Below are positions 1,556 through 63,983 of a stretch of 64,000 nt of DNA, one piece after another. Where the stretch lies: the NCBI GenBank assembly GCA_964016885.1, contig OZ024740.1:84816001-84880000 (forward strand). The letters run 5' to 3'. This DNA is from Eledone cirrhosa. Taxonomy: Eukaryota. A program made the position numbers and the translations under genes. The first letter of the stretch is position 1. Each line of letters opens with the position of its first letter. A model generated the notes under the pieces. That model ran no database searches. It was not told the origin of the DNA and saw only the letters and a list, made by a program, of their open reading frames with translations.

Positions 1556-2288
1556 GTCAATACACTAATAACATTGCAATAACATACATGTCAAACAATG
1601 CTACATAACGTTAATAATACTGAGTAATGAATGACATGTATTAACACATATTGGTAACATATGCTAGCACACACACACATACAGCCATACACACACACGC
1701 ACACTTACAATCATCATCATCGTCATCTTATAGCCCTTTTCCACACTGGCATGGGTTGAATGAGTTTCATGGGTTGTCACAGTCTGAAACTAGATAGGTC
1801 AGATCAACCCATCTTGTTCATACATTCCATATTTGGCATGTTTTCTATGATTAGATGCCCTTCCTAATGCTAACCACCTTACAGAGTGTACTGGGTGTGT
1901 TTTTTCATGGTACCACTGCTACAACTTTACAGAGTGCACTGGGTACAATTTTTTGTGGTACCAACATTAACACTTTACAAAGTGTACCAGTTATATTATA
2001 TCATGGCACCAGCACTAGAGAAATTGTGCTCATCCTCACTGAAGGGCACTCTCAAACCCATCAAATCCCGCCGAGGTTGACTTTGCCTTTCATCCTTACG
2101 GGGTCGATAAAATAAAGTACCAGTAATGAACTGAGTAATTGCTGGCCTTGTGCCTAAAGTAGAAACAAATATTGTCTCCAATTACTGATGCTGTAGCCTC
2201 TAATTACTCACTACATTTACTTTTTATGTTACAGTGCTTGTACACTATTGAATAAAACAAAAACAAGAAATGTGATCCAGAAACTTAC

Positions 2289-2395
2289 ATAGATTTAGCT
2301 TGCTGCCATGTTTTTCCCCATACATAAACTCCATGTCTTCGGACAAGGACAGCACATGTTTCTGGATAATCCTGCATAGCTCGAGCCATGGCATC
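2289..2395 (-). CDS. APIP: APIP coding exon 7: [35 protein letters not shown](M)
   Basis: Third Zn-ligand motif [13 protein letters not shown]. ctgcag acceptor, gtaagt donor, 107 nt. The final exon (CECYDYLF-like) was not found in 1-2288, so the gene probably continues left of the window. Confidence 0.96.
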
Positions 2396-2493
2396 CTGCA
2401 GAAGCAATGAAAATATATGAAAGGTAATGATGGAAATCTTCCAGATTATTGACTTTATGAACCTCTGTCAATTTCAATAAGTGTTTCAGGTGT

Positions 2494-5950: not shown

Positions 5951-8934
5951 GAAATCCATGGAGGCTATGGGTTTGGTACTAGAAATGAGGAAGGCTCCAG
6001 AATCCTGGAATTCTGTGATGCAAATAACCTAACTATCTGTAACACTAACTTCAAAAAACGTGACAATCACCTCATCACCTATAGATCCGGGGAACACACA
6101 AGCCAGGTAGATTATATCCTTACCTGAAGACGTGACAGAGTGTCTGTTGTAAACACTAAATCCCTCCCCCATGAAGAATGCACCTCCCAACATAGACTGA
6201 TAATTAGCGACCTCATAGTCAGGACGAGACGTACTCGACAGCAGAAGAGGACTATCCTCAGGAGAAAAATATGGAAGCTAAAGGACCCCACAGCCAGAAA
6301 TAAATTTCAAAGCATATTACTTGATGCTTTCGACAGTAAGGAAGAACATTTAGAGTTGGACAATATAGAGGGACAGTGGGAATTTCTGAAAGCAAACCTG
6401 CTGATGGCGACAGACGAAGTCTGTGGCTGGAGCAGGCCTGTAGGCAGGATGAGAGTAACATGGTGTTGGAACAGTAAGGTGGAGGGGTCAATTAAGGCCA
6501 AAAAGCAGGCTTGGAAAGTATGGCGGGATGGGGGAAGTAGAGAAGACTATCAAGTGGCCAGGAGGGAAGCTAGGAGACAAGTGTACTTAGCAAGAAGGGA
6601 AGCTGAGGAAAGAAAGTTCAAGCATGTTCTACAACGCGAGGACCAAAAACGTGAGGTGTTCAGGATTGCTAGGCAATGCGTCAAGGAAAACCGTGATATT
6701 GTCGGGGAGAAGTGTGTACTTAACGATGATGGCATACTTGCCATCGCCGACGCTGATAAGAAGGTAGCTTGGAAGTGTCACTATGAAAGGCTACTAAATG
6801 AGGAGAATAAATGGGAGAATGACAGTCTCCCCCATATCGACCCAATAGAGGGACCAGCAGTGTTAGTCGAGGGGAGTATAATAAGTAAGGCAATCAAGGA
6901 TATGAAGACGGGTAAGGCGGCTGGGCCTTCGGAAATAGTTGCTGAGATGCTGAAGGCATCTGGCACGGTGGGACACACCATGGTCACCCGCATAGTTAAC
7001 CAAGTCGTACAGAATGGGGTTGTTCCGAAGGACTGGCATAGCAGCATCATCGTTAACTGTTATAAGGGTAAAGGAGACGCCCTAGATAGGAGTAACTATA
7101 GAGGCATTAAATTAATCGACCAGGTCATGAAGGTCACGGAAAAAGTAATAGCACAACTAATCAGAGAGAGAATTGACCTAGATGAAATGCAGTTCGGGTT
7201 TGTGTCAGGCAAAAGTACCACAGACGCTCTTTTCATTGTACGACAACTACAGGAGAAGTACCGAGCTAAAGGTAAACCCCTCTACTTAGCCTTTGTCGAC
7301 TTGGAGAAAGCCTTCGACAGAGTCCCCCGCTCCATTATCTGGTGGGCTCTTAGAAAACTAGGCGTTGACGAATGGCTTGTGAGAGCTATACAAGCCATGT
7401 ATAAAGAAACAGTCAGCAAGGTTAGAATTAACAACGAATATAGTGAAGAGTTTAGCGTAAAAGTTGGCGTCCATCAGGGCTCTGTTCTCAGCCCCCTACT
7501 ATTTATTATTGCCCTTCAGGCTATAACAGAGGAGTTCAAGACCGGCTGCCCATGGGAACTCCTATACGCAGACGACCTGACACTCATAGCGGAATCAATG
7601 GCCGAGCTAGAGAAGAAATTCCAAACATGGAAGCACGGCCTAGAATCAAAAGGACTTAAAATTAACCTGGCTAAGACTAAGGTTCTAGTTTGTAGGAAAG
7701 AAAATAAGGCGGCGGTCCCTTCTGGGAAATGGTCGTGCTCGGTGTGTAGGAAAGGCGTAGGTAGAAACTCCATTTTATGTCCTAAATGCAAAGTATGGGT
7801 GCATAAAAGATGTAGTGGGATCACAGGTAAGCTAACTAAGAACATAGATTTTACATGTGGCCGGTGCTCTGGCGCAATAAGTAGCAGCAAGTGCCCACAA
7901 AATACTAGCTCTTTCAATTGCGCAGAGGGTTCTATAGAAATAGTGGACAGCTTCCGTTACCTGGGTGATAAAATCAGCAGTGGGGGAGGGTGCTCTGAAA
8001 GTACAGTAGCTAGAGTCAGAACTGGTTGGAAAAAGTTCAGAGAGCTTATACCACTATTAGCTGCTAAAGGGTTCTCCCTAAAAATGAAAGGCAGGTTGTA
8101 CGATGCCTGCATACGAACAGCAATGTTGCATGGCAGTGAGACCTGGGCATTGTGTGCAGAGGATATACGCAGACTAGAGAGGAACGAAGCTTGCATGCTC
8201 CGCTGGATGTGTAACAGTAATATACGTGAACGGCAAAGCATAAACGAACTAAGGAAAAAATTAGAAATAAGAGGGATCAGATGTTGTTTACTCGAGAGAA
8301 GGCTACGTTGGTATGGACACGTGATGCGCATGAAAGTCAATAGCTGTATAACAAAGTGCAGGGCAATAAAGATAGACGGTAGCCACGGAATAGGCAGACC
8401 TAGAAAAACCTGGGACAAGCTGATAAACTCCGACCTCACACACTTACACCTCTCCAAGACAATGTCACTGGACCGAGACCTTTGGCGGTACTCAGTAACA
8501 GAGAAGACCCGCCTTACCTAAATACATAGTAAAACCTACTACAGCCAGTAGGCATCTCTAACAAAATACCCCCCCCCCCACCCGTCCCACCACCACCACC
8601 ACCACCACCACCCCATCCACACCACCCCGTTCTATGTAAAGTTATGTTGGTGCCACACCATCCAGGCCGAAACAAATGAGATCGTGTAGGTGTCACGACA
8701 AAAAAACACACAGTCCACGCTGTAATGTGACCGTGTAGGCAACACGGTAAAAACCTCCCAGACCCACACTGTAAATGTGGTTGGTGTTAGGAAGGGCATC
8801 CAACTGTAGAAAACCTGCCAGACAGTCCTATGCGAGCAAGACAATCACTCTTGCCTCAAGTGGGACTACCCCCGTCCAAACCCATGCAAGCGTGGAACAC
8901 GGACGTTAAACGTTGATGATGATGATGATGATGT
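5951..8934 (+). mobile_element. 5'-truncated young RTE-clade LINE (APE endonuclease C-terminal part, RT, 3' UTR, (GAT)n tail)
   Basis: Frame from 5951 reads EIHGGYGFGTRNEEG...QVDYILT*RR (single TGA at 6125-6127) and continues into ORF 6140-8521 with YRGIKL, QFGF, FVDLEKAFD, GVHQGSVLSP, LYADD, FRYLG and RRLRWYGHVMR. Ends in gatgatgat and is flanked by (TA)n. Confidence 0.95.
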
Positions 8935-13413: not shown

Positions 13414-13503
13414 ATATATATATATAGATACATACATATATATATATGCATACATACACACACACGTATATATATATATATGTATCTGTATATATATATA
13501 TAT

Positions 13504-14894
13504 TTGACAGAATCCCCCACTCCATTATCTGGTGGGCTCTTAGAAAACTAGGTGTAGATGAATGGCTTGTGAGAGCTATACAAGCTATGTATAATGAAAC
13601 AGTCAGTAAGGTTAGAATTAACAATGAATATTGTGAAGAATTTAGTGTAAAAGTTGGTGTTCACCAAGGCTCTGTCCTTAGCCCCCTCTTATTTATTGTT
13701 GCCCTTCAGGCTATAACAGAAGAGTTCAGGACCGGCTGCCCATGGGAGCTCCTATACGTAGACGATCTAACGGTCATAGCTCAATTGATGGCTGAACTAG
13801 AAAAGAAGTTCCAAACATGGAAGCATGACCTAGAATCAAAAGGCCTTAAAGTTAACTTGTCTAAGACTAAGGTCCTGGTTTGTGGAAAGGAAGATGAGGC
13901 ACAGGTACCCTCAGGGAAATGGCCTTGCTCAGTGTGTAGGAGGGGAGTAGGCAGAAATTCAATTTTATGTCCCAAATGCAAAGTATGGGTGCATAAAGGA
14001 TGTAGTGGGATCACAGGTAAACTATCTAAGAACGTAGATTTATATGTGGCCGATGCTCAGGTGCAATAGGTAGCAAGTGTCCACAGGATACTAGCCCCTT
14101 CTATTTCCCAGATGGTTCTATAGAAATGGTGGACACTTTCTGTTGCCTGGGTGACGAAATTAGCAGTGGTGGAGGGTGTTCTGAAAGTGCAGTAGCCAGA
14201 GTCAGAACGGGATGGAAAAAGTTCAGAGAGCTTATACCGCTGTTGGCCACAAAAGGTTTCCCTCTAAAAATGAAGGGCAGATTGTATGATACTTGTATAT
14301 GAACAGCAATGCTACATGGCAGTGAGACATGGGCATTGTGTGCAGAGGATCTGCATAGACTGGAAAGGAACGAAGCATGCATGCTCCGTTGGATGTGTAA
14401 TAGTAATATGCGTGAGCGGCAAAGCATAGATGAACTAAGTGAGAAATTGGGAATAAGAGGGATCAGATGCTGTTTACTCGAGAGAAGACTATGTTGGTAT
14501 GGCCATGTGATGCGGATGAAAGATGACAGCTGTATAAAGAAGTGCAGGGCGATCAAAATTGCTGGTAGTTACGGAGTAGGTAGACCCAGAAAAACCTGCG
14601 ACGATCTGATAAATTCCGACCTTGCACACTTGCACCTCTCTAAGACAATGTCGCTGGACCGAGATCTTTGGCGCTACGCAGTAATACAGAAGACCCGCCT
14701 TGCCTATGTACAAGGCGAAACCTACAGTCGGTAGGCACCTCTTAACCAAATATACACCCCAATCCACTACCCCTACCCTATCCTCCCACTCCCACCAACA
14801 CCACCCTCTCTCTATAAAGTTGGTACCACAACATCCAGTCCAAATAAATGAGATGATCGAGATCGAGATCGTGTAGGTGTCACGAGAAAAAAAC
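13504..14894 (+). mobile_element. Second 5'-truncated, frameshifted copy of the same RTE LINE family
   Basis: ORFs 13446-14069 and 14309-14734 are closely similar to the 6140-8521 protein ([17 protein letters not shown]..., LHGSETWAL...). Contains a frameshift and a stop; starts in (TA)n. Confidence 0.92.
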
Positions 14895-23821: not shown

Positions 23822-25117
23822 ACCCAGGTGCACTACAACTCATCAAAGGTGCATGTATAGTACATAAAATAATGTACAAATGTCAGGAAAGTGAACAGTG
23901 TATGAGTCATGATATGCATGTGTGCATGTGTATGGAGGGGGATATCAGGTGTAGTGTTGGCAAATTTCAGGAAGCATGGAGGTTTTAAAGGATGCAGTGT
24001 CCTGGCAGCTAACAACTGATGCAAGTAGTTTGTTCCATGCTTCAGCAACTTTGAGCGTGAAAAAATGTTTCTAAAAGTCATGGGAGCTGTGCTGTTTTCT
24101 GACTTTGTAGGCATGTCCATGGGTATTAGACACATGGAATTCAAAAAGGTACTCAGGGTTGTTGTTGGCAAGATGGTTAATAATTTTGTGGGTGTTTACC
24201 AAGTCAGTTGCCAGACGCCAGAGCTTCAATGTATCCATGCCCAGGGAAGCAAAGCATTCATAGTATGGTTGATGCCTGATGGAGGGTATTCGCTTGGTTG
24301 CACATCTCTGAACAGTTTCCAGGAGGTCAATGTTCTGAGCAAGATAAGGGTTCCAGACTGGTGACACAAATTCTAAGTATGGCAGCACCATAGCTATATA
24401 CAGCTTTAAATAGATAGCTGGAAAGCAGCTGACAAAGGTCTTGCTGAGTGATGCCAAGACACCCTCGGCCTTCTTGATAATTTTAGAGACGTGCTTTGTC
24501 CAACGCAAATTCCTGCTGACATTAATGCCCAGGTCACGTTCCCAAGAAGGCTTCTTGACATTAGTGTTGTGGAAGGAGTATGTGGACGCTAGGGTTTTCC
24601 TCCCAAAATGCATGGTGATACACTTGTCCACAGCCAGCTTGAGTTGCCAGTCCATGATCCATTGCTGCATTGTGTCCAGGTCTGATTGCAGGAAAGATCT
24701 ATAGTGTTCAGGATCTGTCCTTTTTATCTCAAGGTACAGCTTGATGTCATCTGCATATTTCAGCACTGTGGCATTCTTTAAGTTGGCATCTATGTCATTA
24801 ATATATGCAACAAACAAAAGGGGACCAAGAACAGATCCCTGCAGTACACCAGATATCTCATAGGGTGAAGAATGCTGTCCTAGAACCGTGACTACCTCTT
24901 TTCGACTGAGAATGAAGGACTTCAACCAGTTAAAAAGATCATCTCTCACACCCATTGCAAAGAGTTTTGCCATAAGTCTTTTGTGTGGCACAGAATTGAA
25001 AGCTTTAGCAAAATCAAGGTAAACAACATCCACCCATGAGCCACCATCAGTGATCAGGGTGATGTCTTCAAGAAACTTTATAAGTTTGTCACAGCAGCTA
25101 GAGTTAGAGATGAACAA
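23822..25117 (-). mobile_element. 5'-truncated CR1-clade LINE RT fragment
   Basis: ORF 24071-25117 contains VDVVYLDFAKAFNSVPHKRL, QGSVLGPLLF, YADDIKLY, ERDLG, LETVQRCATKRIP and THGHAYKV. The frameshifted tail continues in ORF 23833-24171. Confidence 0.88.
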
Positions 25118-26070
25118 GGCCTCTTCCTGATAAGGACTTTCACCTTTGCTAAAGTTTATTTTTAGACCTTTCAGCTTTAAATGCCAGCTTTAAACTCCTC
25201 AGTGATGGCCTGATGTACACTGATAAACAGAAGTGGACTGAGCACAGAACCCTTATGGATACCCACCTGCACTTCAAATTCATCACTGTACTGATTGCCA
25301 ACTCTTCCCTTGCTAGTTGCACCTTTATACAAGGCTTGCACAGCTCTCACAAGCCATTTGTCAACACCTAACTTCCTAAGTGCCCACTTGCTTACAGAGA
25401 GTGGGGACCCTGTTGAAGGCCTTCTCCAGATCTACAAATACCAGGTACCTCTCCTGTAATTGTTTCACCAGAAAGGGGAGATGGTTGTACCCCTACTTGG
25501 CATAAATCCAAACTGCATTTCATTTAATTTGATTTTGTCTCTAATTAGTTGTGCAATAACCCTTTCAGTAACTTTCATGACCTGGTCTATCAACTTGATG
25601 GTTCTGTAGTTATCTCTCTCTAATGCACCATTATAGCACTTTACAATGATACTGCTGTGTCAGTCATTAGGTATGACACCATGCTATATTGATTGATGAA
25701 TTATGCATCTAACTGGCTCATAACCTACCATGCTAGATACTTTTATCATCTTCGTAATTCTACCAGATGGTCCAGCTGCCTTCTTTACTTTCAGGTTCTT
25801 AATTGATGGCTTTTATGGCTGGTCCCTCAGTTGGGTCTACATAGGGTAGGCCCTAATTGTCAAATTTATTTTCTTCATTCAGCAGTCTCTCATAGAATGT
25901 TTTCCATACCTCCTTCTTTTCAGCATCAGCAGGGCAAGTGCTCTACAATCATTTCAGACACATTTTCCCACCAAACAAATCAAGATTTTCTCTAGCACAG
26001 TGTCTCACCATCTGGAACACTTCACACCTCTTATCTTCACAACATAGGACATGTGCAAACTTGTTTTCTG
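25118..26070 (-). mobile_element. Degenerate RTE LINE RT fragment
   Basis: Reverse strand aligns with RTE segments (NYRTIKLIDQVMKVTERVIAQLIR, FVDLEKAFNRVP, SVLSPLLFI) with many stops and indels. Confidence 0.8.
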
Positions 26071-28883: not shown

Positions 28884-28978
28884 TGGTGTTTTATGCTGAT
28901 TCCTCCACCAGTTCCTGTACACCAATCAAGATGATAGAATTGACGGCACAATTCTGGTATCAAGTTGCGTGGATGTTC
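28884..28978 (-). CDS. APIP: APIP coding exon 2: [31 protein letters not shown](Q)
   Basis: Matches the APIP/MtnB N-terminal motif ([24 protein letters not shown]). aag acceptor, gtaagt donor, 95 nt, phase 0 to 2. Confidence 0.95.
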
Positions 28979-30012
28979 CTTTAGAAAAACATCAGTAGAA
29001 ATATCAAAAGTAAATTAATATGAAAACAATAAATCTAATAATAATACATTATTTAAAATATTTTCTTTCATTAATAAGTAAAAAATGAATAAAAGATATT
29101 ATATTAAAAACATTGGAGAGGTGGGAAAAGTTCAGCATATTAAATTTAGAGCTTAATTTCAATACAAGTTAGGTCAAATGTGTGCCATATATATCATTAA
29201 TGTAAAAGATATGAACACTACATCTTCTATTCTCTAAGAATTGAATAAGACTAAACCCAATTCTAGCCTCCACTGGCAGATGTCTTTGATTTTTTTAAGT
29301 ACTACAGAATATAACTATAGTGTTTTAGTTAACAGAAAATTTATTGACAGATATAAATATCTTGTTATTATATACAATATCTTCAGAGAGAGAAAAAATA
29401 AAGGAATTTGCCAGAATAGTTTAAATTCTGTCTTGGGATTTCCTCAGCAACTGAGTGCCATTTTTAACATGGAGACTGCTTGTAAAGCCAGAATTGCTAA
29501 GTGCTAAAGTAAATGGGATACATTAATTTGCAAATATAAGGCATTCTTGGCAATTATTATGATTAATAAATTGCCAGTGTGTTAACCATGTTTTGTTTCA
29601 ATGTAATACTGTACTCAATTTAACTTATGCTCCTGGATAATCAAGTACTAGGGTGATACAATGTAGAGAGGCCACTTTAACCCTTTGATAATCATATCTT
29701 TAAAGAAACATACAATTCTAATTTCCAGTTGATGTTGAAAATATTCAAGAATTTGAAGAGACTTTGCAAAATATCTAACTTTTTGATTCATTGATATATC
29801 AAACCAATGTTTTGTTCACAATTTAATAAAAGTTTTTCACTTAAAATTTTAATAGAATGTTTTCAATGAACATTTTTAAATAAATGATTTTGTATCATAG
29901 AACCAGGGTCAGTTTCAAACTGTTTTGTGACAAACAGCTTCTAGTATTTCTGGCACAATAATATACAACTCAATGTTATGAAGTCAATCAACATGGAAAC
30001 ACACATATTCAA

Positions 30013-52484: not shown

Positions 52485-53764
52485 ATGTTTTATATTATAC
52501 AGCATGGCCTCAGCCGGATGGCTGAAACAGGTAAAAGAGTAATAAACTTTTCATGATCTAGTGAAATAAATTACTAATGTGTTTCAATTAATATATAGAA
52601 TGATCAAGAATTTAAGGATTTAGTTCAATTTGATATTAGGAACATGACTAAAAGCTTTTACATGAAATTGACAGAAAGTTCAAATTTGTATATATACACT
52701 TTGAAATGGACAGATTTTGTATCACAGAACCAAGACAATGTTAGATGGGTTGATATCAAAAGGTCTATCACATTGTCCAGAAAGTGTGAACTAACATTGT
52801 CATACTGACTATCATCATCATTGTCATGTTAGATATTACATACACCATTAACATCACATTATCCAGAAAGTGGGAACTATATTAGGTAAATGTGACAACT
52901 CTTTAATTGATTATGTTCTATCATTCTTTTGTTAGACCAATTAAGAGTTCAATGGCAGTGGAAACATAAAACTCTGTGTGAGGTACTCAACATATTAATA
53001 GAACAGGTTGTTTAACCCCTTCATTACAATATTTCTAATGAAATATACTGTGTGTTTTAATTCATTTTGAAAATAATCAAAAATGTTGAGGGATTTACTA
53101 AAATAACTTTTTCATTTTAAGCTGCTGTTTGAATCAACAAAATTTCCTGACATAATGAACTGCTTTGTATCATAGAAGAGTCAATTTCAAGGGATTAAGT
53201 ACATTAGCATTTCCTTTGTAAAATACATTTCTGAAATTGAATAAGCAACAAATAATAATAATAATAATGGTAAGTTATATAATAATAAAAACATGGTTGT
53301 ATCAGCAGCAGCAATAATAATAATAATAATTACAAATAGGTGTTTTTTTTTATTCTTCATATATTTGTTTGAATTTTTTATCCAGTTAGAGAAGAGTGAA
53401 AGTTTCAAAAGAAGGATATGTATGCATGTATATATAAATATATACACATGCATATACATGTGAGTGGTTGTATATACACACACATATATATATATATATT
53501 CATACATAAACCAACAGAGAACAAGAGGGCGAGAAAGATATAGAGTATGGTCTGGATTGGAACAGAAACCACACACATATACACACACATAAATTAAAGT
53601 CAGAGATTTCAAAAAATAAACACACATGCCCACACAAATTCACATATCAATTGTGAAATTATACATCATCTGTAAACAAAAGTAGGAAAATATCTGGCAG
53701 TAGAGCAAAGTGGATATTTTTGAAGAAGTCAACATTTTGATTTCAGTTTAGATGTGGGGAAGTT

Positions 53765-55489
53765 TCAGGAACACAGTTTGCAAGGGTTATCACTGCCATT
53801 CACACAAGACACATGGAACCATCTAGGGCAATTGTCACAACCAACCCAATTAATGTCTTCCTGGTCAGTTTCAGGGTCTTCTTCCAGGCAGATATAACAA
53901 ATGCTATCATCAATTTCTTCTTTAACATCATCAACAGTTTTACTTGCTGGCAGTAACTTCTTTTTAGATTTACTTTTATTTTTCCGTTTCATTTTAGGTT
54001 GAAATCTCAGGATTGCTTCTTTTATTAATGCAGCTTCATCATTTTCTTGTGCATTTTTCTTTTGTTCTTTGTTTGGTGGGGCTTTGTCATCTCCCTGTAG
54101 GCCTCTTTTTTGACGTTTAGAAGGTTTTTTCACAGATTTTGTTTTTTCATTTGAGAAAACAGAAGACCGAGGAGACCTTTTGGCTTTTGTTTTAGAATTT
54201 GATGCAGACTCTGTTACTGCTTCAGCATCTTCCGTTTCCGTTGATTGGAGACCAGATGGACCAGCATCTCTCTCCGATCTATCTAAATTTTTAGAAGAAA
54301 GTAGCTTACCCTTTTCCACATCCAAAGGACAAAAACCAGACTTACGAAATCCATTGATGAGGTTATCTTTTCGGGCAAGGAAGGCTTCATCAAAGAAGCG
54401 CTTCAATAGAGAAGGAAAAACAAGCTTTTGGACCGATTTCAGACTAGACTCCTTATAGTATGTCTGGAGAATCCTATGCCACACTTTTTTGGCTGGTCCA
54501 TACACAGAAATCTCAAGAGGTTGCAGAGCACCTGAGGAATGTGGAGGTAAGCAAACAAGATGTACCCCAGCATTCCTGGCTTTTGAAGCTGTTTGATAGG
54601 TAATATGTGAGCCATTTCCATCAAAAAACACAATTATTGGTTTCTCCCTATTTTTTACAAAAGGTAAAAATGTCTGTGTCACCCAGTTTTCAAATACATA
54701 ATCATCCATCCAACCAGTTTCTGTAATGTTGTATGTAGTCCCAGCAGGGCCACCCATCATCCACGTATCGTACAGGTATTTACCTTTGTAAATAACGTAG
54801 GGAGGCAGATACTCTCCCTCAGCATTGCCACAAAATAAAACAGTGTAAAGAGTCTTACCCACCGACGGCACTACATACTGACCGTTCTTAATGCCACGAT
54901 GATGAAAAGTCTTTTTCTTTTTCGGATCGAGATTAAGTCCCGTTTCATTTAAATTGTAAAATCGTTCCGGTAAATCTGTTATGCCCAATTGATTCACCAA
55001 CTGACTCAACATTTGAAAAAAGCCATCGATAACCACATCAGTGAGTTCTTTAATTTTTGCAATATTTACATAATCTGGTTTTCTCAAAGTTAGTCTGTCT
55101 TTCCAGCGATTCATGAAATGCTGAAGCCAGTCATCTCCAGGTACATTGTTTTTAAAAACAGTTTGCAGATCCATAGAATCAAAGTAACTTTTCACAATAA
55201 GTTTCAGTTGGTCATTATCCAACGTCCACCCGAGATCACCCAAATACAATAGTGCCTCTATTAAATATTCTTCGATTTCAGTTGACAGAACTGTATCACG
55301 ACCCGATCGAAAATGAGCACTTTCGCGTTTGTTAACCCATCTTTCTAACGTGGATCTTGGTACACCAAACTTCCGAGCAACTGAACGAAAAGTCACACCT
55401 TTACCTCCGTTTTTGTAGCAGTTTATAGCATTCCTCAGATCATCTTCAGAAAATGTTTTCAAAGTTTTTCTTTTGTATAATCGGGGCAT
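53765..55489 (-). CDS. Intronless pogo/CENP-B-like (DDE_1) transposase-derived protein, 574 aa, with psq-type HTH, CENPB-type HTH, altered DDD domain and C-terminal PHD finger
   Basis: Uninterrupted ORF from ATG at 55489. Motifs: FRSVARKFGVPRSTL (HTH), PGDDWLQHFMNRW (CENPB-type HTH), YNLNETG / FFDGNGSH / LPPHSSGALQPLE (DDE_1), and a C-terminal C4HC3 CYIC...CDNC...H..C...CKLC. No terminal inverted repeats recognised. Confidence 0.92.
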   Translation of the reverse strand: MPRLYKRKTLKTFSEDDLRNAINCYKNGGKGVTFRSVARKFGVPRSTLERWVNKRESAHFRSGRDTVLSTEIEEYLIEALLYLGDLGWTLDNDQLKLIVKSYFDSMDLQTVFKNNVPGDDWLQHFMNRWKDRLTLRKPDYVNIAKIKELTDVVIDGFFQMLSQLVNQLGITDLPERFYNLNETGLNLDPKKKKTFHHRGIKNGQYVVPSVGKTLYTVLFCGNAEGEYLPPYVIYKGKYLYDTWMMGGPAGTTYNITETGWMDDYVFENWVTQTFLPFVKNREKPIIVFFDGNGSHITYQTASKARNAGVHLVCLPPHSSGALQPLEISVYGPAKKVWHRILQTYYKESSLKSVQKLVFPSLLKRFFDEAFLARKDNLINGFRKSGFCPLDVEKGKLLSSKNLDRSERDAGPSGLQSTETEDAEAVTESASNSKTKAKRSPRSSVFSNEKTKSVKKPSKRQKRGLQGDDKAPPNKEQKKNAQENDEAALIKEAILRFQPKMKRKNKSKSKKKLLPASKTVDDVKEEIDDSICYICLEEDPETDQEDINWVGCDNCPRWFHVSCVNGSDNPCKLCS

Positions 55490-56339
55490 GACTATTCCTT
55501 TAACTTCCCACACGACTTCTTCTGCAGGATTTGTTTTGGTTAACTCTGTTATTAAATAGTGTGGTTATACACCCCTCCCTGTGGTTTGTTCTAATTGTGT
55601 CGATCTTATAACAAAAGGTTACAAATATCAAGTAAATTCTGGCCCCTCCCAGAACACATCTTGTTCTTGAAACATAAACATAGTTTAACCTACCACATCT
55701 CATACAAGTCAACGAGCCTTAGCTAGTTTTGTTAGGTATTCAGCGGAAATATAGACACATCATTTTAGTAATATTCTAATATAGAAACACACAATACACT
55801 GGTTCTTACATTTCCGCCTTTTTGTTTAATCTTGTCTTTCTTTCTTTCCAGCACGATAGTGGATCCTGGATTAGAATAGTTCCAACGGATATCATCAAAG
55901 TAAGTCCTTTTATCATAGTGCTCCGATTAAACAAGGCAAAACTGGCAGAATTTCACACAGAGAAAGTTAACAGTTTTATCATATTAATAGCTTTGGGGAA
56001 CAACTAAAAAAATCCATTCGATAAAAATTTCGATTTAAAACTTCCAAGACATTTAAAGTTAAAAGACTGGAGTGTTTATTGGTAAGGTCAAACGACCTAA
56101 AATGATATATTCCACACAGCATTACATTGTAGGAAGGATTTTCACAACCTTCAATACGGAAGGAACCTTGTTACTTTCATTTGATCTGACTGATCGAGTT
56201 ATTGCTTTTCAACAGAGTATTATATATCTCCCCCATCGTATCCCCAGATGGATTTCCCCCTTATTTCGTCGTTAGCACCAACTAAAACTTTCTGCCTCCT
56301 GTCTACCACCACTAAAAAGGAATAATGTTTAATTAGCAC

Positions 56340-56415
56340 GGAAATACAGCGAAAGAACGTCATTGGCTGGAGAGAGAGATAGAGAGAGAGAGAAGACTAA
56401 ATTTTTACTTCCGAT
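56340..56415 (-). promoter_or_regulatory. Putative separate promoter for the nested pogo-derived gene
   Basis: Minus strand carries AGCCAATGACGT (CCAAT box plus CRE half-site, about 56357-56368) and an ETS core CGGAAGT (about 56407-56413), about 0.9 kb upstream of the ORF and inside APIP intron 1. Confidence 0.4.
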
Positions 56416-56655
56416 ATTTAGAAGTAGTTATATTGCAATATTGCATGGCAAAGATATAGATATGAGGCTGTTACTAAAATACAAATATACATTGATCTGA
56501 GATAATTGATAAAATGCGTGCGTGTATGTCTCTTTACAATGATGAGTGTGCGCGTGTCATTTGTTATTCTGTTCGTAACTCTTGCCGGGAAATCAGCACG
56601 ATTGCCATCGGAAAGAGTGGGGAAATAAGATCATAGGCATGAAAAGCAATCTTAC

Positions 56656-56664
56656 TTCGTCCAT
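56656..56664 (-). CDS. APIP: APIP candidate coding exon 1 (M-D-E), followed by GTAAGA donor
   Basis: Minus strand reads ccaATG GAC GAA|gtaagat. The phase-0 donor joins exon 2 to give [14 protein letters not shown]. It lies directly beside the promoter motifs at about 56770-56820. Only 9 coding nt, so the assignment is an inference. Confidence 0.7.
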
Positions 56665-57490
56665 TGGTGAGAAGGTTTGCGTGAGAAGGCAGTCTTAGGA
56701 ATGTGTTCTGAATAGAGTTCGTCTGGATCCTACTTTCCACACTTGCCGCGTAAACACAACATAATATGGAGGAAGTCTCGGACCGCTAGTACTGACTTCC
56801 GGTCTCACTACAATTCTCTCACTGTCGTTAACTGATGCGAGATTTTCTTTTTAAAACAGTATAAAAATTTGATTTTTTAGAAAAGTTAATAAATATATTT
56901 AGGCACAATATGTATGTATTTATCTATAATTCCATTATGTATATATATATATAAATATAATTATAAAAACTAAATAGCTATTTTTTTTATGGCGAAGCTG
57001 ACCACCGGCGAATATTCGAGTCACTAACAATCTTTATTTTGTAAAAATAAATTTTATACACTACATATGTATATTGAGTGCTCTTGGATTTTTTTATATA
57101 TGATTATACACAGAACACACATTAATATAAGTCTTTTACTAACTACTATATTTGTGTATGTGTGCGCGCGCGCGCACGCGTACATCTGCTTATGATGTCT
57201 GCTTAGTGGGGTGAACACCTACCTCTTGGAGCTGCCTAGTTTTTTGTTTTGCCTTTTTTTTTTTCCACCTCCAACCTATCATATACAGTCCATTTTTTTT
57301 TTTTTTTTTTTAATTAGCCTCCCTGTTCGGCAGCAACTGCTTTAAAAGTGGGTGGACTCGACCGTCGCTCTCCACATATACGCACCTCATTTCAAACAAC
57401 CTTCATTGACTTTTTCTTGAATTTCCCCATCGTAACGGACGACTTTAAACAACAAGCTTAATTATTTATTTAATCAACTGTGAATTTGAA
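56665..57490. promoter_or_regulatory. Putative bidirectional promoter between APIP and FIBP
   Basis: Divergent ATGs about 0.83 kb apart. ETS/GABP-type ACTTCCGG at 56795-56802, ZNF143/THAP11-like ACTACAATTCTC at 56807-56818, GCGC run near 57163-57180, locally raised CpG. Confidence 0.65.
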
Positions 57491-57702: not shown

Positions 57703-60700
57703 GTGAGCAAATTAATAATAATAATGTGCGGCAAAATGCTTTCTTCTATATAAACATTTTTTTTATCTTCTGTTTCCTCCTATCTCTCTGTCTCTTCTCT
57801 AATGCATTATATACACACGGCCCTCTACGTAGTCGCTGGACATGCTAAAAATAGTAGACCAATTGCACTGAAATTATAGAACTATCACCTCGAAATAGAA
57901 GATATACTTTGAATAATTTACTGTCCTAGATGCTCAGTGCACAAAAGAAGGATAAATTGTCACGGTTAGAATAATTTTGATCGTAAGTTGGATTAGTTAG
58001 AACTGAAGCTAAACAACAGTATGATAGTTAATGACTGGAACATCTTTGATCATAGAGTCAATTGGAGTTGACCTAGGGCTAAACAACAACTACCGATCCA
58101 GTGAGAAAGCATGTAAGCGATTCTCGACCTAGAGTCCGTGAGCTAAGTTCAAAATTTCAAATACTTTGTTAAAAACATAATATACACACATTATTGGATA
58201 TCAATTCTTCCGCCAACATAAACAAATTATTTTCACCAACATAAACAAATTATTTTCACCATATAACAATCTAGGGGATGGTGGAGTGAATGTAACTAGG
58301 AGGCATGTTTCTGCTGCGACCATCCCATCATTATATATATATATAATAATTTAGATGAGTTGATAATACAACCATTATTTTTATTAATTATATATATATA
58401 CACACACACACAGAATGTGTGTGTGGTGTCTAATTTGCCCTTCCTTTTTTAAGATGGTAGGATGTAACTTGTGGGAGTTTGACCGTGATATCTAGCAGGT
58501 TGAGTAACCGCTTAGAAGCACGCTCATTGACTCGTGAATAATTGTGGTTCAGTCCCGAGTCAGCCCTAATTGAACAAACCCATGATCAAAGTGTTCCTGC
58601 CAGAACCATAGTCTTTTTCCACATATGAATCTATCAGCTGATTCGCTTGATGTTATTTAGCCCATAGTCAATCCAACTCGAGTAGCTTCATGTATGATAA
58701 GCGGAGTTTCAGTCGTGACCATCCCATATTTTCGGGCACATGACTATATTATCTAATGACCTTTTTAAGACATTGTGATTTTATGGAAATCTAGCTGCTA
58801 TTTCTAGCAAATTGAACTACTACATAGACTTTCTCGTTAGCTCAGTCAGCTGATCTGTTGTGCTTGTAACTATTAGTGTTGTTATTTATGTTAGTAATGA
58901 GTTTAAAAGATTTTATTAGTTGTAGAATAACGTTAATTAGTGTAATTAATGTTATTACTCTTTTATAGTAATGTAAATATACATTTTACATAAAAACAGT
59001 CCCGATAAATTTTATCTTTCTTTTTATATCGTATAAATTGACTTTATTATATAACCATAAGTAAATGATACTTTTTACCACAATTATTTTTTATATAGCA
59101 GAATTATGATTAAAAGAGTTCTCGTTGTAGTTATCCCGTTTTGGGTTATACTGTAGAACACTAGGGTAAAATAATGTATACTTAATTCTGGAGCCGGCCG
59201 AACTGTCCAGAGTTGATGGGAAGAGACCAGATAGCCTTAGCCTTTGTCCCTGGGTAAGAAGTAGATGTTTCTTTGGGGAAGCCTCTGTCAGTGACTCTTT
59301 TGCTCCTTCCCATATCTTGGATGCTGCGGTAAATTTAAGGGTTGCTGCTTCCATAGCTGAACAGAATAAAATTCTAAAGTTACCGGCAAACTATTTTTTC
59401 GCTGGCAGCGAAGTTCTTGTCATCGTTAGCGGCTTGCTTTACCGATGTGTCAGATGATGCCCGTGAAGGTGCTTGGTTGTTCCAGCGCCTTAGTCTCGCT
59501 ATCACCCTCTTAATACTGCGAGCGTGTTGACTTGTCTCAAAAAGTATTAGAGGGAGGTTTCGGCACCCCGTGTGGTGTGTGACCGATCGACACACTTGGT
59601 GCTGAATTAATATTTACTTTTGTTTTGATTATGTATTTTTATGTGAAATATTTATGTAATTCAGTATTGACTATATTATTTGTGTGAATATTTTCATTCT
59701 GTAAGGATTATAAATAAGTGTTCATCTACAGGCATTCATTAAAAAATGAAAGCATTAGTATAAGTACTCTTTCCTTTTCTGTAATGAAAATAGTATGAAT
59801 ATTGAAAGGTTTCGGATTCTAGTCTTTCACTTTTTCACAATGTTTTAAATTCAAAATGATTAAGTACGTAAATATAAATATATAAAAACGTATGTTGTTT
59901 AATGTGCAAAGGCATTTCCATCCTTTAAAAAAATTAAAGCAACGGAATTCCGAACTTTACGGAAATGTGTTCTTTCGGTGTTTACAATTGAAATGGCCTC
60001 CCGTAGCAAACATTTTTCTTTTTTTCTTCTTCCATACGTTTTTATTTTTTATATAGAATGTGTTGGCAAATAGAAAACAAAAAGAAGAGGAGAATAAGAG
60101 TAAGAAAAAAGGAAGGGAATTAAGCAACGAAAGAAAGGTTGGGACAACAGGCCCAACACCCTAGTCTGAACGGTGTTTCAGCTGCGCCCAGCAGTATTTC
60201 GTTTGCATTTACAGAGTATAAATAATTTTGTTTGCATTTGAAATGTATAGATATATTTTGTTTGCATTCGTAATTATATTTTCATTCTTAAGAGAACATT
60301 TTCAAAAAGTGAAACAATACAATTTTGCTAGAGTATTCTCCCTTGAGACACTCCCCATTCCTACCGTTACTTTATTTCCAGATTTAGGCTATATAAAATT
60401 ATTTCATCGAATGTGCCATTCACTTTTAAGACATTAAGGTTTTGATTTGAGGCAGATTGGGCAAGTATTTCTATCAGGCCAATTGACGATGTTTTATCCT
60501 TCTCTGAAGGATGAACAACAAAGTTGACATCGGCAAGATTTGGTAGTAAAGAGCTGAAAGAACTACATAAAAAAAGAAATTTTAGAATTGTGCAAATCAT
60601 GGAAGCAAGTGTCATCCCAGTTTTTGGTATTCTCTAATTTGTAATGACTATTTTTAACATTTTAAAAGTGTTTGAAGTATTTAAACCATAATTTACCTTG

Positions 60701-61367: not shown

Positions 61368-62011
61368 ATCATCATCATCATCATCATCATCAACGTTTAA
61401 CGTCCGTGTTCCACGCTTGCATGGGTTTGGACGGGGCTTTTCCCACTTGAGGCAAGAGTGATTGTCTTGCTCGCATAGGACTGTCTGGCGGGTTTTCTAC
61501 AGCTGGATGCCCTTCCTAACACCAACCACATTTACAGTGTGGGGCTGGGAGGTTTTTACCGTGTTGCCTACACAGCCACATTACAGCGTGGACTGTCTGG
61601 TGGGTTTTCTACAGCTGGATGCCCTTCCTAACACCAACCACATTTACAGTGTGGGGCTGGGAGGTTTTTACCGTGTTGCCTACACGGCCACATTACAGCG
61701 TGGACTGTGTGTTTCTTTTGTCGTGACACCTACACGACCTCATTTGTTTCGGCCTGGATGTTGTGGCACCAACATAACTTTACATTGAAAGGGGCGGTGT
61801 GGATGGGGTGGGGGTGGTGGGACGGGGTGTATTTTGTTAGAGATGCCTACTGACTAGTAGGTTTTACTTTGTATTTAGGTAAGGGGGGTCTTCTCTATTA
61901 CTGAGTACTGCCAAAGGTCTTGGTCCAGTGACATTGTCTTGGAGAGGTGTAAGTGTGTGAGGTCGGAATTTATCAGCTCGTCTCAGGTTTTTCTGGGTCT
62001 GCCTATTCCGT
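61368..62011 (-). mobile_element. RTE LINE 3' fragment with internal tandem duplication of about 113 bp
   Basis: Reverse complement of about 8385-8934 with an (ATC)n tail. The block near 61488-61600 is repeated at about 61601-61713. Confidence 0.88.
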
Positions 62012-63532: not shown

Positions 63533-63983
63533 TCATCATCATCATCATCATCGTTTAACGTCCATCTTCCACGCTAGCATGGATTTGGACGGGAATTTTC
63601 CCACTTGAGGCAAGATTGGTTGTCTTGCTCGTATAGGACTGTCTGGCGGGTTTTCTACGGCTGGATGCCCTTCCTAACACCAACCACATTTACAGTGTGG
63701 ACTGGGAGGTTTTTACCGTGTTACCTACACGGCCACATTACAGCGTGGACTGTGTGTGTTTTTGTCGTGACACTTACACGCCCTCATTTGTTTCAGACTG
63801 GATGCTGTGGTACCAACATAACTTTACATTGGATGGGGTGGGGGTAGTGGGGCTGAGGTGTATTTTGTTAGAGGTGCCTACTGACTGTAGGTTTCGCTTT
63901 GTACTTAGGCAAGGCGGGGCTTCTGTATTACTGTGTATCACCAAAGATCTCAGTCCAGTGACATTGTCTTGGAGAGGTGTAAG
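63533..63983 (-). mobile_element. RTE LINE 3' fragment
   Basis: Reverse complement of about 8440-8934 with an (ATC)n tail. Confidence 0.88.

What the first reader, a model, noticed from the sequence alone, without database searches (positions are those of the whole stretch)
53765..55489. Probable domesticated pogo transposase gene with an altered catalytic triad and PHD finger
Seen: an unbroken 574-codon ORF among decayed transposons, with no recognisable TIRs. The first catalytic Asp is Asn (YNLNETG, codon 54947-54949), the second Asp is kept (54620-54622) and the third is Glu (LQPLE, 54512-54514), 35 residues later. Both HTHs, a basic linker and a C4HC3 PHD finger are intact. Established: pogo transposases normally use DDD, and CENP-B, JRK, TIGD and POGZ arose by domestication. 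Inference: a catalytically dead DNA- and chromatin-binding host protein, possibly lineage-specific.
Basis: partly seen in the sequence, partly recalled or inferred. Interest (0 to 1): 0.75.

Follow-up and report, generated by a model that had tools for sequence, protein, structure and literature searches.

The report
Octopod domesticated pogo transposase gene
A single-copy octopus gene derived from a pogo-type transposon enzyme is conserved across octopods with two of its three catalytic residues changed, lies inside the first intron of the APIP gene, and likely now acts as a DNA- and chromatin-binding protein; the Octopus bimaculoides copy was already catalogued in 2023.

Summary
Window 53765-55489 (-) is an unbroken 574-codon ORF with HTH_psq, a DDE_1 core and a C-terminal C4HC3 PHD finger. 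Its triad is N181-D290-E326, with DD35D spacing.

It is one copy in a 3.0-Gb genome and has no TIRs. Intact orthologues of 567-595 aa exist in Octopus bimaculoides, O. sinensis, Argonauta hians and unnamed runs. All 8 carry N-D-E. Among 248 non-octopod relatives none does; nearly all complete ones are DDD.

Partial codon counts give dN/dS of about 0.04 (codons 1-120) and 0.16 (codons 452-574).

Three things are new here:
- The PHD finger was not added at domestication. Mobile relatives with TIRs, 2-bp TSDs and intact DDD carry the same finger.
- The gene lies in the 27.7-kb first intron of the APIP/MtnB gene, on the same strand.
- RNA-type contigs from three other octopods run unspliced from APIP exon 1 through the ORF.

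The O. bimaculoides orthologue is already listed as 'HTH-PSQ PHD' in a 2023 supplement. This is therefore a solid new member of a known kind, of moderate interest. Its function is inferred, not shown.

The parts
53765..55489 (-). Intronless CDS (574 codons plus stop) of the pogo-derived gene
   Evidence: single copy in the genome; orthologues of 567-595 aa
55319..55450 (-). HTH_psq DNA-binding motif (residues 14-57)
   Evidence: Pfam PF05225, 26.1 bits, cut-off 20.4; helices 15-27, 34-41, 45-53 in the model
55106..55282 (-). Second three-helix bundle (residues 70-128), predicted second HTH
   Evidence: AF2 helices 70-85, 92-106, 119-128; HTH_Tnp_Tc5 found in 4 of 36 relatives but not in this protein; Foldseek alignment to full-length Mos1
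54320..54961 (-). RNase H-like DDE_1 core (residues 177-390)
   Evidence: Pfam DDE_1, E 2.5e-22; most pLDDT blocks 76-96 with three dips to 56-69; Foldseek hits to Mos1, SETMAR and Sleeping Beauty catalytic domains; 10-12 of 255 residues of the wider block 141-395 differ between octopods
54947..54949 (-). Codon 181, Asn in place of the first catalytic Asp (NLNETG)
   Evidence: N in 6 of 6 octopod rows of A3 (8 of 8 in A2). Among the 30 other rows: D in 27, H in 1, 2 truncated
54620..54622 (-). Codon 290, second catalytic Asp retained. The neighbouring His of DGHxSH is Asn (DGNGSH) in octopods
   Evidence: D in 36 of 36 rows; DGH in 27 of 30 non-octopod rows, DGN in 6 of 6 octopod rows
54512..54514 (-). 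Codon 326, Glu in place of the third catalytic Asp (LQPLE)
   Evidence: E in 6 of 6 octopod rows, D in 30 of 30 others
53906..54304 (-). Disordered basic/acidic linker (residues 396-528) with lysine/arginine runs
   Evidence: pLDDT below 50; 29-41 of about 128 residues differ between octopods; the indels shown here are multiples of 3
53771..53899 (-). C4HC3 PHD finger (residues 531-573) with two invariant Trp (W547, W555)
   Evidence: 1-3 of 46 residues differ between octopods
55490..56655 (-). 1.17-kb stretch of APIP intron 1 between exon 1 and the ORF, present unspliced in contigs of three other octopods. It contains 24 ATGs; the two further upstream ATGs counted lie in exon 1
   Evidence: (contigs of 3128, 3185 and 2930 nt)
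56656..56852 (-). APIP/MtnB exon 1 (ATG at 56662-56664; GT donor at 56654-56655). The 5' limit is uncertain
   Evidence: A 1051-nt X1 contig joins 56655 to 28977; sequence; contigs reach 56783-56852 or beyond
28884..28978 (-). APIP/MtnB exon 2 ([31 protein letters not shown])
   Evidence: PDB 4m6r, methylthioribulose-1-phosphate dehydratase, E 1.7e-14; Pfam Aldolase_II, 20.4 bits, below the 22.2 cut-off; AG acceptor and GTAAGT donor
2288..2437 (-). A later APIP/MtnB exon (Aldolase_II profile positions 123-171)
   Evidence: G000:C1:84818288-84818437 (-), 33.4 bits

Best explanation
This is a single-copy, intronless host gene derived from a pogo-superfamily transposase; it is conserved across octopods under purifying selection, and it likely no longer transposes but is predicted to act as a nuclear protein that binds DNA through its paired HTH domains and reads histone H3 tails through its C-terminal PHD finger.

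Shown here:
- Descent from a DDD-bearing, PHD-bearing pogo clade.
- Loss of TIRs and of other copies.
- A fixed N-D-E triad.
- Strong conservation of the HTH, core and PHD domains next to a fast-evolving linker.
- A position in APIP intron 1.
- Transcript-like contigs that run from APIP exon 1 through the ORF.

Inferred: catalytic inactivity, DNA and histone binding, and any regulatory role. The RNase H-like core is as conserved as the HTH domains. It is therefore predicted to serve as a dimerisation or nucleic-acid-binding scaffold rather than as dead weight.
For: Origin.
- Pfam finds DDE_1 and HTH_psq.
- Foldseek's best hits are Mos1, SETMAR and Sleeping Beauty transposases.
- HMMER finds 16,574 representatives at E <= 1e-3. 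Identity drops from 90% (the octopod cluster) straight to 43%.
- In a quick IQ-TREE of 36 rows the octopod clade has SH-aLRT 100. It sits on a 0.87 stem inside a 99-supported clade with the DDD proteins P0005-P0008. Octopod tips are 0-0.07 long, against 0.23-2.4 for all but one closely related pair of the other rows.

Parent elements are mobile.
- L029 and L030 are 98.7% identical over 2963 bp, with about 23-bp TIRs and 2-bp TSDs (TA and TC).
- L044 and L045 are 99.97% identical over 3785 bp, with about 26-bp TIRs and TA at both ends.
- Their 750- and 749-aa ORFs keep DDD and end in the same C4HC3 finger.

Domestication.
- One copy in 3.0 Gb and no TIRs.
- Orthologues in O. bimaculoides, O. 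sinensis, A. hians and Logan assemblies, with 475 of 601 alignment columns invariant.
- Differences from the window protein by domain: 6-10 of 140 (HTHs), 10-12 of 255 (core), 29-41 of about 128 (linker), 1-3 of 46 (PHD).
- Codons 1-120 against the O. bimaculoides cDNA: 23 synonymous and 4 non-synonymous changes, omega about 0.04.
- Codons 452-574 against the X6 contig: 21 synonymous and 17 non-synonymous changes, omega about 0.16.
- The ORF indels shown are 3, 3, 3 and 2+4 nt. The indels shown in the flanks and leader are 1-2 nt, apart from one 3-nt deletion in the 3' flank.

Triad.
- N-D-E occurs in 8 of 8 octopod sequences.
- Among 30 close relatives: D-D-D in 27, H-D-D in 1, 2 truncated.
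- Among 73 metagenome ORFs: DDD in 62, 11 incomplete.
- Among 145 representatives: DDD in 127, other changes in 9, 9 incomplete, and no N-D-E.
- Decayed pogo copies in the same genome mostly keep D.

PHD finger.
- Scanned alone, the tail scores 30.4 bits against PF00628, and 5 of 5 aligned tails match.
- A profile of the tails hits KDM5B (E 3.8e-6), PHF13, CBP, ALFIN-like 3, BPTF and KDM5A PHD fingers.

Expression.
- Run X1, from the same species label, contains a spliced APIP contig, so it holds RNA. It also holds 100% of the sampled ORF words.
- X6, X17 and X19 come from three organisms and three studies. Each has one contig of about 3 kb running from the ORF to APIP exon 1. Each has almost no depth over 56968-57479 upstream.
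Against: - No binding, localisation or phenotype data exist, so function is inferred from domains alone.
- Asn and Glu can still coordinate metal ions, so inactivity is not demonstrated.
- The unspliced leader carries 26 upstream ATGs, including APIP's own start. That would hamper translation. The true 5' end of the mRNA is unknown, because contigs cannot show starts.
- The kind of X6, X17 and X19 (RNA) is the tool's guess, not on record. The DNA run X12 covers this stretch only patchily, so 'RNA stops where DNA goes on' is weak.
- dN/dS was counted on 243 of 574 codons only. One of the two counts was made by eye against a supplement cell that is cut at 360 nt.
- The PHD region of the AF2 model has pLDDT of only 53-68.
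- Synteny in O. bimaculoides, O. sinensis and A. hians could not be examined.
Confidence: 0.78

Rival explanations
1. A domesticated enzyme that keeps partial nuclease activity. The N-D-E site would still bind metal and nick or cleave DNA. I recall that SETMAR keeps some activity with a D-D-N triad. On this view the protein acts in DNA repair, recombination or programmed rearrangement rather than as a passive binder.
For: - The core, including the residues around the triad, is as conserved as the HTH domains: 10-12 of 255 differences, and NLNETG, DGNGSH and LQPLE are identical in all but one octopod sequence, which reads LQPFE.
- D290 is kept in 36 of 36 sequences.
- Glu is a legitimate third residue in DDE enzymes. 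Gao et al. list DD29-59D/E for pogoR (passage seen).
- Foldseek matches the SETMAR transposase domain.
Against: - In my recollection, the first Asp is essential in every characterised DDE/D transposase, and D->N there abolishes catalysis. This was not checked here.
- Three active-site changes are fixed together: D181N, H292N and D326E.
- No TIR-like substrate is known.
Confidence: 0.13
2. An old, immobilised transposon copy that is not a functional gene. The open frame would persist by chance, or because the sequence is constrained as part of the APIP intron or promoter region.
For: - It lies in an intron 1.17 kb downstream of a promoter, where non-coding constraint is plausible.
- The leader has 26 upstream ATGs.
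- The APIP exon 1 region is more conserved (4-5% mismatch) than the CDS (7.5-7.8%).
Against: - The substitutions are overwhelmingly synonymous: 23 to 4 and 21 to 17, where about 78-81% of sites are non-synonymous.
- The ORF indels shown keep the frame.
- About 5% of single-base changes in this ORF would create a stop. Yet 8 of 8 octopod sequences are open over 567-595 codons, including Argonauta at 80% BLASTP identity (88% in the A2 alignment).
- The neighbouring intron sequence is 12% diverged with many 1-2-nt indels.
Confidence: 0.03
3. A still-autonomous pogo transposon present at low copy number.
For: It has a complete transposase-like architecture, and close relatives elsewhere are mobile.
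Against: - One copy in 3.0 Gb and no TIRs.
- The local position is the same in three other species' contigs.
- The triad is altered in all 8 octopod sequences.
Confidence: 0.02

Closest known systems
Vertebrate pogo-derived host genes (POGK, POGZ, TIGD2-7, JRK/JRKL, CENP-B), as described in Gao et al. 2020, PMC7386202 (passages seen)
   Same: - A whole transposase is retained as a single-copy host gene, with HTH DNA-binding domains and a DDE_1 core.
- The triad is often partly altered. POGK is DN35D and TIGD2 is DD34S in their Table 1.
- Ka/Ks is low: the values visible in the passages read are 0.055-0.142, against 0.04-0.16 here.
   Different: - This is an independent, octopod-restricted domestication. 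Its nearest relatives are DDD transposases at no more than 49% identity, not these genes.
- The changes here hit the first and third residues (N-D-E).
- In POGK, POGZ and CENP-B the extra domains were added by fusion. Here the PHD finger was inherited from the transposon itself.
O. bimaculoides LOC106877420 / XP_014781803, listed as 'HTH-PSQ PHD' in Mukherjee & Moroz 2023 (PMC10027918, Table1.xlsx, sheet HTH-Psq)
   Same: It is the orthologue of the window gene (91% identical). It is already counted among 12 Octopus HTH-Psq transposon-derived transcription factors.
   Different: - The main text of that paper has no occurrence of 'PHD' or 'catalytic'.
- In the passages I saw, the paper states Ka/Ks below 1 for its TF families. 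I did not open its Ka/Ks supplementary tables, so I do not know whether they hold a per-gene value for this gene.
- In the passages and the supplement row I read, the triad change, the Argonauta orthologue, the PHD-bearing mobile relatives and the APIP-intron context do not appear.
Fot/Fot-like and Passer families of pogo (both DD35D)
   Same: The spacing is 35 residues. The DNA-binding domains are HTH_psq, plus HTH_Tnp_Tc5 in some relatives. Gao et al. report that combination for Fot/Fot-like (Pfam).
   Different: I made no tree with reference Fot, Passer or Tigger sequences, so family assignment is open. 'PHD' does not occur in the main text of Gao et al..
H3K4me3-reading PHD fingers (BPTF, KDM5A/B PHD3, ALFIN-like, KDM7, Spp1/CFP1)
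   Same: The C4HC3 spacing is shared, and so is the W-x2-C-D-x-C-x2-W-[FY]-H-x2-C core. W547 and W555 align with the Tyr and Trp of BPTF's 'fYiGCDrCqnWyH'.
   Different: The matches are by sequence only (E 3.8e-6 to 1e-2). That these positions form the methyl-lysine cage is my recollection. Binding specificity is untested.

Membership tests
pogo superfamily transposase (descent) | DDE_1 (PF03184) catalytic core with an RNase H-like fold | tested here: met
   E 2.5e-22, 79.8 bits against a cut-off of 22; Foldseek hits Mos1, SETMAR and Sleeping Beauty
pogo superfamily transposase (descent) | N-terminal paired HTH DNA-binding domains | tested here: met
   HTH_psq is over its cut-off. The second bundle appears only in the AF2 model and in 4 of 36 relatives' Pfam hits
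pogo superfamily transposase (active element) | D-D-D catalytic triad | tested here: not met
   N181-D290-E326, although the spacing of 35 is kept
pogo superfamily transposase (active element) | Terminal inverted repeats and a TA target-site duplication | tested here: not met
   None bracket the ORF in 52500-57000. Mobile relatives do have them
pogo superfamily transposase (active element) | Multiple similar copies in the genome | tested here: not met
   1 full copy; the others are at most 36% identical and mostly carry stops
Domesticated transposase (host gene) | Intact orthologues in several species | tested here: met
   O. bimaculoides, O. sinensis, A. hians and Logan assemblies; 8 of 8 are open
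Domesticated transposase (host gene) | Same genomic position in related species | tested here: inconclusive
   Contigs of three other organisms are colinear from the ORF to APIP exon 1. Chromosome-scale synteny in named genomes could not be examined
Domesticated transposase (host gene) | Purifying selection (dN/dS well below 1) | tested here: met
   About 0.04 (codons 1-120) and about 0.16 (codons 452-574), counted on 243 of 574 codons
Domesticated transposase (host gene) | Transcribed and translated | tested here: inconclusive
   RNA-type contigs carry it. The run kind is mostly a guess, the 5' end is unknown, and there is no protein evidence
PHD finger (PF00628) | C4HC3 ligand pattern and a score over the Pfam cut-off | tested here: met
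   All 8 ligands are invariant in 5 of 5 aligned tails. The tail alone scores 30.4 bits against a cut-off of 24; the full-length protein scores only 20.1
PHD finger (PF00628) | Zinc-dependent fold and histone-tail binding | not testable with these tools
   The AF2 model has pLDDT 53-68 in this region
CENP-B / TIGD / JRK / POGZ / POGK orthologue | Closest relatives are those genes | tested here: not met
   The nearest non-octopod proteins are unnamed DDD transposase-like sequences. CENP-B_N scores 19.8 bits, below its 21.2 cut-off
Fot-like / Passer (DD35D) family of pogo | Placement with reference family members in a tree | not tested
   No reference sequences were available to me. Only the spacing and the DNA-binding domain type agree

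The most novel reading that the evidence does not exclude
A clade of pogo transposons carries its own histone-reading PHD finger, presumably to steer integration toward marked chromatin. Octopods captured one such copy inside the first intron of APIP. It now shares APIP's promoter and first exon. The choice between splicing exon 1 to exon 2 (giving APIP) and reading through (giving the pogo-PHD protein) would then couple the output of a methionine-salvage and apoptosis gene to that of a chromatin reader with an N-D-E active site.
Probability: 0.25. Interest if true: 0.65.

Novelty: new member of a known kind. Interest (0 to 1): 0.42.

Why it matters
Domesticated pogo transposases are well documented in vertebrates and fission yeast. 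In molluscs they have so far mostly been counted, not dissected.

This locus is a clean, datable invertebrate case. It has a single orthogroup, a fixed two-residue change in the active site, and identifiable mobile relatives.

It also shows that a chromatin-reading PHD finger can be native equipment of a pogo transposase. Three literature searches did not find that pairing described.

The nesting in APIP intron 1, with read-through transcripts, offers a testable model of how a captured transposase acquires expression.

None of this overturns current views, and the gene itself was already catalogued.

Tried and rejected
- Earlier notes of this scan: two look-ups returned nothing.
- Runs X1 and X5. 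Although they hold 100% and 67% of the ORF words, almost none of their contigs were laid on the ORF. The tool says a filter drops records. No conclusion is drawn from the holes.
- X20, the only run on record as RNA, gave one 620-nt contig on the leader (56115-56677) and none on the ORF. That is too little to use as expression evidence for the ORF.
- X12 (DNA?) covers the gene region only patchily, so it is not a good 'DNA goes on' control.
- Full-length dN/dS was not possible. The difference tables of read laying are capped at 40 rows. The cDNA cell in the supplement is cut at 360 nt. No relative's genome is held.
- Divergence time of Argonauta and Octopus: the argonaut genome paper (PMC9635652) gave no figure in the passages found, so no date is quoted.
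- The careful IQ-TREE search did not finish in 300 s. The quick tree is reported instead. Rows P0015 and P0022 were left out because they lack the first catalytic region.
- A canonical polyA signal: the first AATAAA is 411 nt past the stop. The 3' end of the transcript is not established.
- A possible acceptor (cctgcAG, near 55522) that would give a short spliced leader was considered. No contig shows that junction.
- The ESM Atlas search only repeated the Pfam picture.
Full report
**1. The observation**

The minus strand of window 53765-55489 holds an unbroken ORF. It is 574 aa from the first ATG and 599 codons from stop to stop.

Pfam finds three domains:
- HTH_psq at residues 14-57 (26.1 bits, cut-off 20.4).
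- DDE_1 at 215-348 (E 2.5e-22).
- PHD at 531-568 (20.1 bits, below the cut-off of 24).

Scanned alone, the last 60 residues score 30.4 bits for PHD (E 3.9e-7).

N181 is in YNLNETG, D290 in FFDGNGSH and E326 in LQPLE. Thirty-five residues lie between the last two.

The second HTH is not seen by Pfam in this protein, and HTH_Tnp_Tc5 matches only 4 of 36 family members. An AlphaFold2 model built on a 36-row alignment gives more support (mean pLDDT 68.2):
- Two three-helix bundles, at 15-53 and 70-128.
- A mostly confident RNase H-like core at 177-390.
- A disordered stretch at 396-545.
- A low-confidence C-terminal finger.

Foldseek's best PDB matches are full-length Mos1 transposase complexes (E 1.4e-7, about 400 aligned columns). 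The SETMAR and Sleeping Beauty catalytic domains follow.

No inverted repeats bracket the ORF within 52500-57000 apart from AT-rich low-complexity runs.

**2. Copy number and orthologues**

The window's genome is 3.0 Gb in 1796 contigs. A six-frame search finds one full-length match, which is the window itself. The other 16 matches are at most 36% identical, partial, and mostly carry stops. Where they cover the catalytic columns they mostly read D.

A search of 5.8 billion proteins returned 34 hits:
- Two Logan-derived proteins at 89% identity.
- An Argonauta hians protein at 80% (595 aa).
- Nothing else above 49%.

Cluster look-up adds XP_014781803.1 (O. bimaculoides LOC106877420, 574 aa), XP_029636049.1 (O. 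sinensis LOC115211605, 574 aa) and two 567-aa Logan forms. The window's own sequence is not in the collection.

In the alignment of these 8 sequences, 475 of 601 columns are invariant. All 8 read N-D-E and keep every Cys and His of the finger.

An exhaustive HMMER scan of 1.84 billion representatives finds 16,574 relatives at E <= 1e-3. Identity falls from 90% for the octopod cluster directly to 43%. Within what these databases hold, the gene is one isolated orthogroup restricted to octopods.

**3. Selection**

Compared with the window protein, the other octopod sequences differ by domain as follows:

| Domain | Residues differing |
|---|---|
| HTH region | 6-10 of 140 |
| Core | 10-12 of 255 |
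| Linker | 29-41 of about 128 |
| PHD finger | 1-3 of 46 |

Two partial codon counts were possible.

(a) The supplement of PMC10027918 prints the first 360 nt of the O. bimaculoides cDNA. I compared it by eye with window 55130-55489. It shows 27 differences, 23 synonymous and 4 non-synonymous. That gives pS 0.289, pN 0.014 and omega about 0.04.

(b) The difference table for the X6 contig is complete for 53725-54135. In codons 452-574 it gives 21 synonymous and 17 non-synonymous changes over 71 and 298 sites. Omega is about 0.16. Some neighbouring changes near indels may be alignment artefacts.

The indels shown inside the ORF are 3, 3, 3 and 2+4 nt. The indels shown in the 3' flank and in the leader are 1-2 nt, apart from one 3-nt deletion in the 3' flank.

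Mismatch levels in the contigs also differ by region:
- CDS piece: 7.5-7.8%.
- Intronic leader (55839-56362): 12.2%, plus 32 gap letters.

About 5% of possible single-base changes in this ORF would create a stop. All 8 sequences are nevertheless open.

**4. Where it came from**

Catalytic columns in relatives:

| Set examined | First position | Second | Third |
|---|---|---|---|
| 30 non-octopod proteins of alignment A3 | D in 27, H in 1, 2 truncated | D in 30 | D in 30 |
| 73 ORFs of at least 250 aa from 72 of 80 metagenome loci | DDD in 62, 11 incomplete, none N or E | | |
| 145 further representatives | DDD in 127, NDD 4, five other single changes, 9 incomplete, none N-D-E | | |

The His of DGHxSH is also replaced in octopods. 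DGN occurs in 6 of 6 octopod rows, and DGH in 27 of 30 others.

A quick maximum-likelihood tree was built from 36 rows. Two truncated rows were dropped and two transposon ORFs were added. The careful search did not finish. The tree puts the octopod sequences in one clade with SH-aLRT 100, on a stem of 0.87. That clade sits inside a 99-supported group with the DDD proteins P0005, P0006, P0007 and P0008. Octopod terminal branches are 0-0.07. All other rows are 0.23-2.4, apart from one closely related pair at about 0.05-0.06.

**5. The PHD finger is ancestral, and the relatives are mobile**

Among metagenome contigs, two pairs of near-identical copies sit in different flanks:
- L029 and L030 share a 2963-bp segment at 98.7% identity.
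- L044 and L045 share a 3785-bp segment at 99.97% identity.

The shared segments end in inverted repeats of about 23 and 26 bp. They are flanked by 2-bp duplications: TA or TC for the first pair, TA for the second.

Their ORFs of 750 and 749 aa keep D-D-D and end in a C4HC3 finger.

I aligned the tails of the window protein, P0005, P0015, L029 and L044. All eight zinc ligands and two tryptophans are invariant. All 5 of 5 tails match PF00628.

A profile of these tails hits solved PHD fingers:
- KDM5B (E 3.8e-6).
- PHF13, CBP, ALFIN-like 3, BPTF and KDM5A (2.5e-5 to 7.5e-5).

In the pairwise alignments, W547 and W555 fall on the Tyr and Trp of BPTF's 'fYiGCDrCqnWyH'. That these are methyl-lysine cage positions is my recollection, not a result.

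Seven of the 145 representatives also end in such a finger, and all seven are DDD.

Three literature searches found no paper that pairs a pogo or DDE_1 transposase with a PHD finger. The main text of Gao et al. 2020 has no occurrence of 'PHD'. Repbase-type resources and subscription journals were not searchable.

**6.

In run X1, which has the same species label as the window, a 1051-nt contig lies on 56655-56684 and then continues with letters that are not on the laid stretch. Its 30-letter continuation occurs once in the window, at 28948-28977, and once in the whole genome.

The junction has a GT at 56655/56654 and an AG at 28980/28979 on the minus strand.

Exon 1 carries an ATG at 56664-56662. 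Exon 2 (28978-28884) encodes [31 protein letters not shown]. This matches human methylthioribulose-1-phosphate dehydratase (APIP, PDB 4m6r) at E 1.7e-14 and Pfam Aldolase_II at 20.4 bits, just under its 22.2 cut-off. A further Aldolase_II exon lies at window 2288-2437 (-).

The pogo-derived ORF therefore sits in the 27.7-kb first intron of APIP/MtnB. It is on the same strand, 1.17 kb downstream of exon 1.

**7. Transcription**

X1 contains a spliced junction, so it holds RNA-derived sequence. It also holds 100% of the 175 sampled ORF words.

Runs X6, X17 and X19 come from three organisms and three studies, and the tool guesses their kind as 'RNA?'. Each gives one contig, of 3128, 3185 and 2930 nt, at depth 21, 50 and 85. 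Each contig is colinear with the window from the ORF through the leader to exon 1.
- In X6 and X17 the contig ends at 56684. That is 30 letters past the exon 1 donor, as expected for a graph branch where spliced and unspliced forms part.
- X19 runs on to 56807 and beyond.
- Over 56968-57479 upstream their depth is 0-0.93.

I read this as an unspliced read-through transcript from the APIP promoter that carries the ORF.

The caveats are real:
- The RNA label is a guess.
- Contigs cannot show transcript starts.
- The leader has 26 upstream ATGs, and APIP's own ATG would open a 23-codon uORF.
- An internal start site or an unseen splice is not excluded.

**8. What it most likely does**

Shown: a transposase-derived, single-copy gene conserved at the protein level, with intact DNA-binding and PHD modules and an altered active site.

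Inferred:
- It no longer cuts and pastes DNA. The first Asp is Asn, the third is Glu and the neighbouring His is Asn. In my recollection D->N at the first position abolishes catalysis in DDE/D enzymes.
- It works as a nuclear factor that recognises DNA through the paired HTHs and histone H3 tails through the PHD finger. The strongly conserved RNase H-like core would act as a dimerisation or nucleic-acid-binding scaffold.
- The lysine- and arginine-rich linker would supply nuclear localisation.

A residual nicking activity of the SETMAR kind is the main rival. I put it at about 0.13.

**9. Comparison with what is known, and novelty**

The closest analogues by mechanism are the vertebrate pogo-derived genes. 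POGK is DN35D, TIGD2 is DD34S, and the Ka/Ks values visible in the passages I read are 0.055-0.142 (Gao et al. 2020, passages seen). This is not an orthologue of any of them.

The 35-residue spacing and the HTH_psq domain agree with what that paper reports for Fot/Fot-like elements. I made no tree with reference families.

The O. bimaculoides orthologue is already listed as 'HTH-PSQ PHD' among Octopus TE-derived transcription factors (PMC10027918, Table1.xlsx, sheet HTH-Psq, row 20). That paper's main text discusses neither PHD nor catalytic residues. No paper in the searchable library names the accession or LOC numbers in its text.

The finding is therefore a well-supported new member of a known kind. 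It adds three details: a PHD finger inherited from the transposon, a fixed N-D-E triad across Octopus and Argonauta, and capture in APIP intron 1 with read-through transcripts.

Noticed in passing
window 6128-8521 (+), 13428-14069 (+), 24071-25189 (-): ORFs of non-LTR retrotransposon type. All three match RVT_1 (E 6e-33, 4.6e-18, 8.4e-24). The first two are followed by a PHD finger (23.7 and 25.9 bits). All lie inside the APIP intron.
   Followed up: no
window 2288-56852 (-): An APIP/MtnB (methylthioribulose-1-phosphate dehydratase) gene spans most of the window. Exon 1 is near 56656-56852, exon 2 at 28884-28978, and a later exon at 2288-2437. Intron 1 is about 27.7 kb long.
   Followed up: partly
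window 57736-60551: Very high-copy repeats. Summed contig depth in the DNA run X12 reaches 56,870 in the bin 58760-59015, with many joints and loose ends at 58455-58828.
   Followed up: no
window 61478-61708 and 63684-63788: Tandem repeats: a 112-nt unit x2.1 (98% match) and a 49-nt unit x2.1. They share a 'CCACATTACAGCGTGG' motif.
   Followed up: no
proteins P0059, P0088 (1264 aa), P0092 (1057 aa), P0095: Four of the 145 family representatives read N-D-D at the catalytic columns, and two of them are unusually long. They may be other domestication events in unknown organisms.
   Followed up: no
protein P0014 (728 aa): A pogo-like DDD protein with a C-terminal OTU cysteine-protease domain (PF02338, E 4e-7).
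   Followed up: no
L029 6398-7555 (-): A 385-aa ORF on the opposite strand overlaps the right end of the PHD-bearing pogo element. The element may have inserted into, or next to, another gene or transposon.
   Followed up: no
window 55490-55512 and 55512-55623: The 23 nt just upstream of the start codon align in X17 and X19. The next 70-110 nt are replaced by unalignable sequence of similar length (joints).
   Followed up: no
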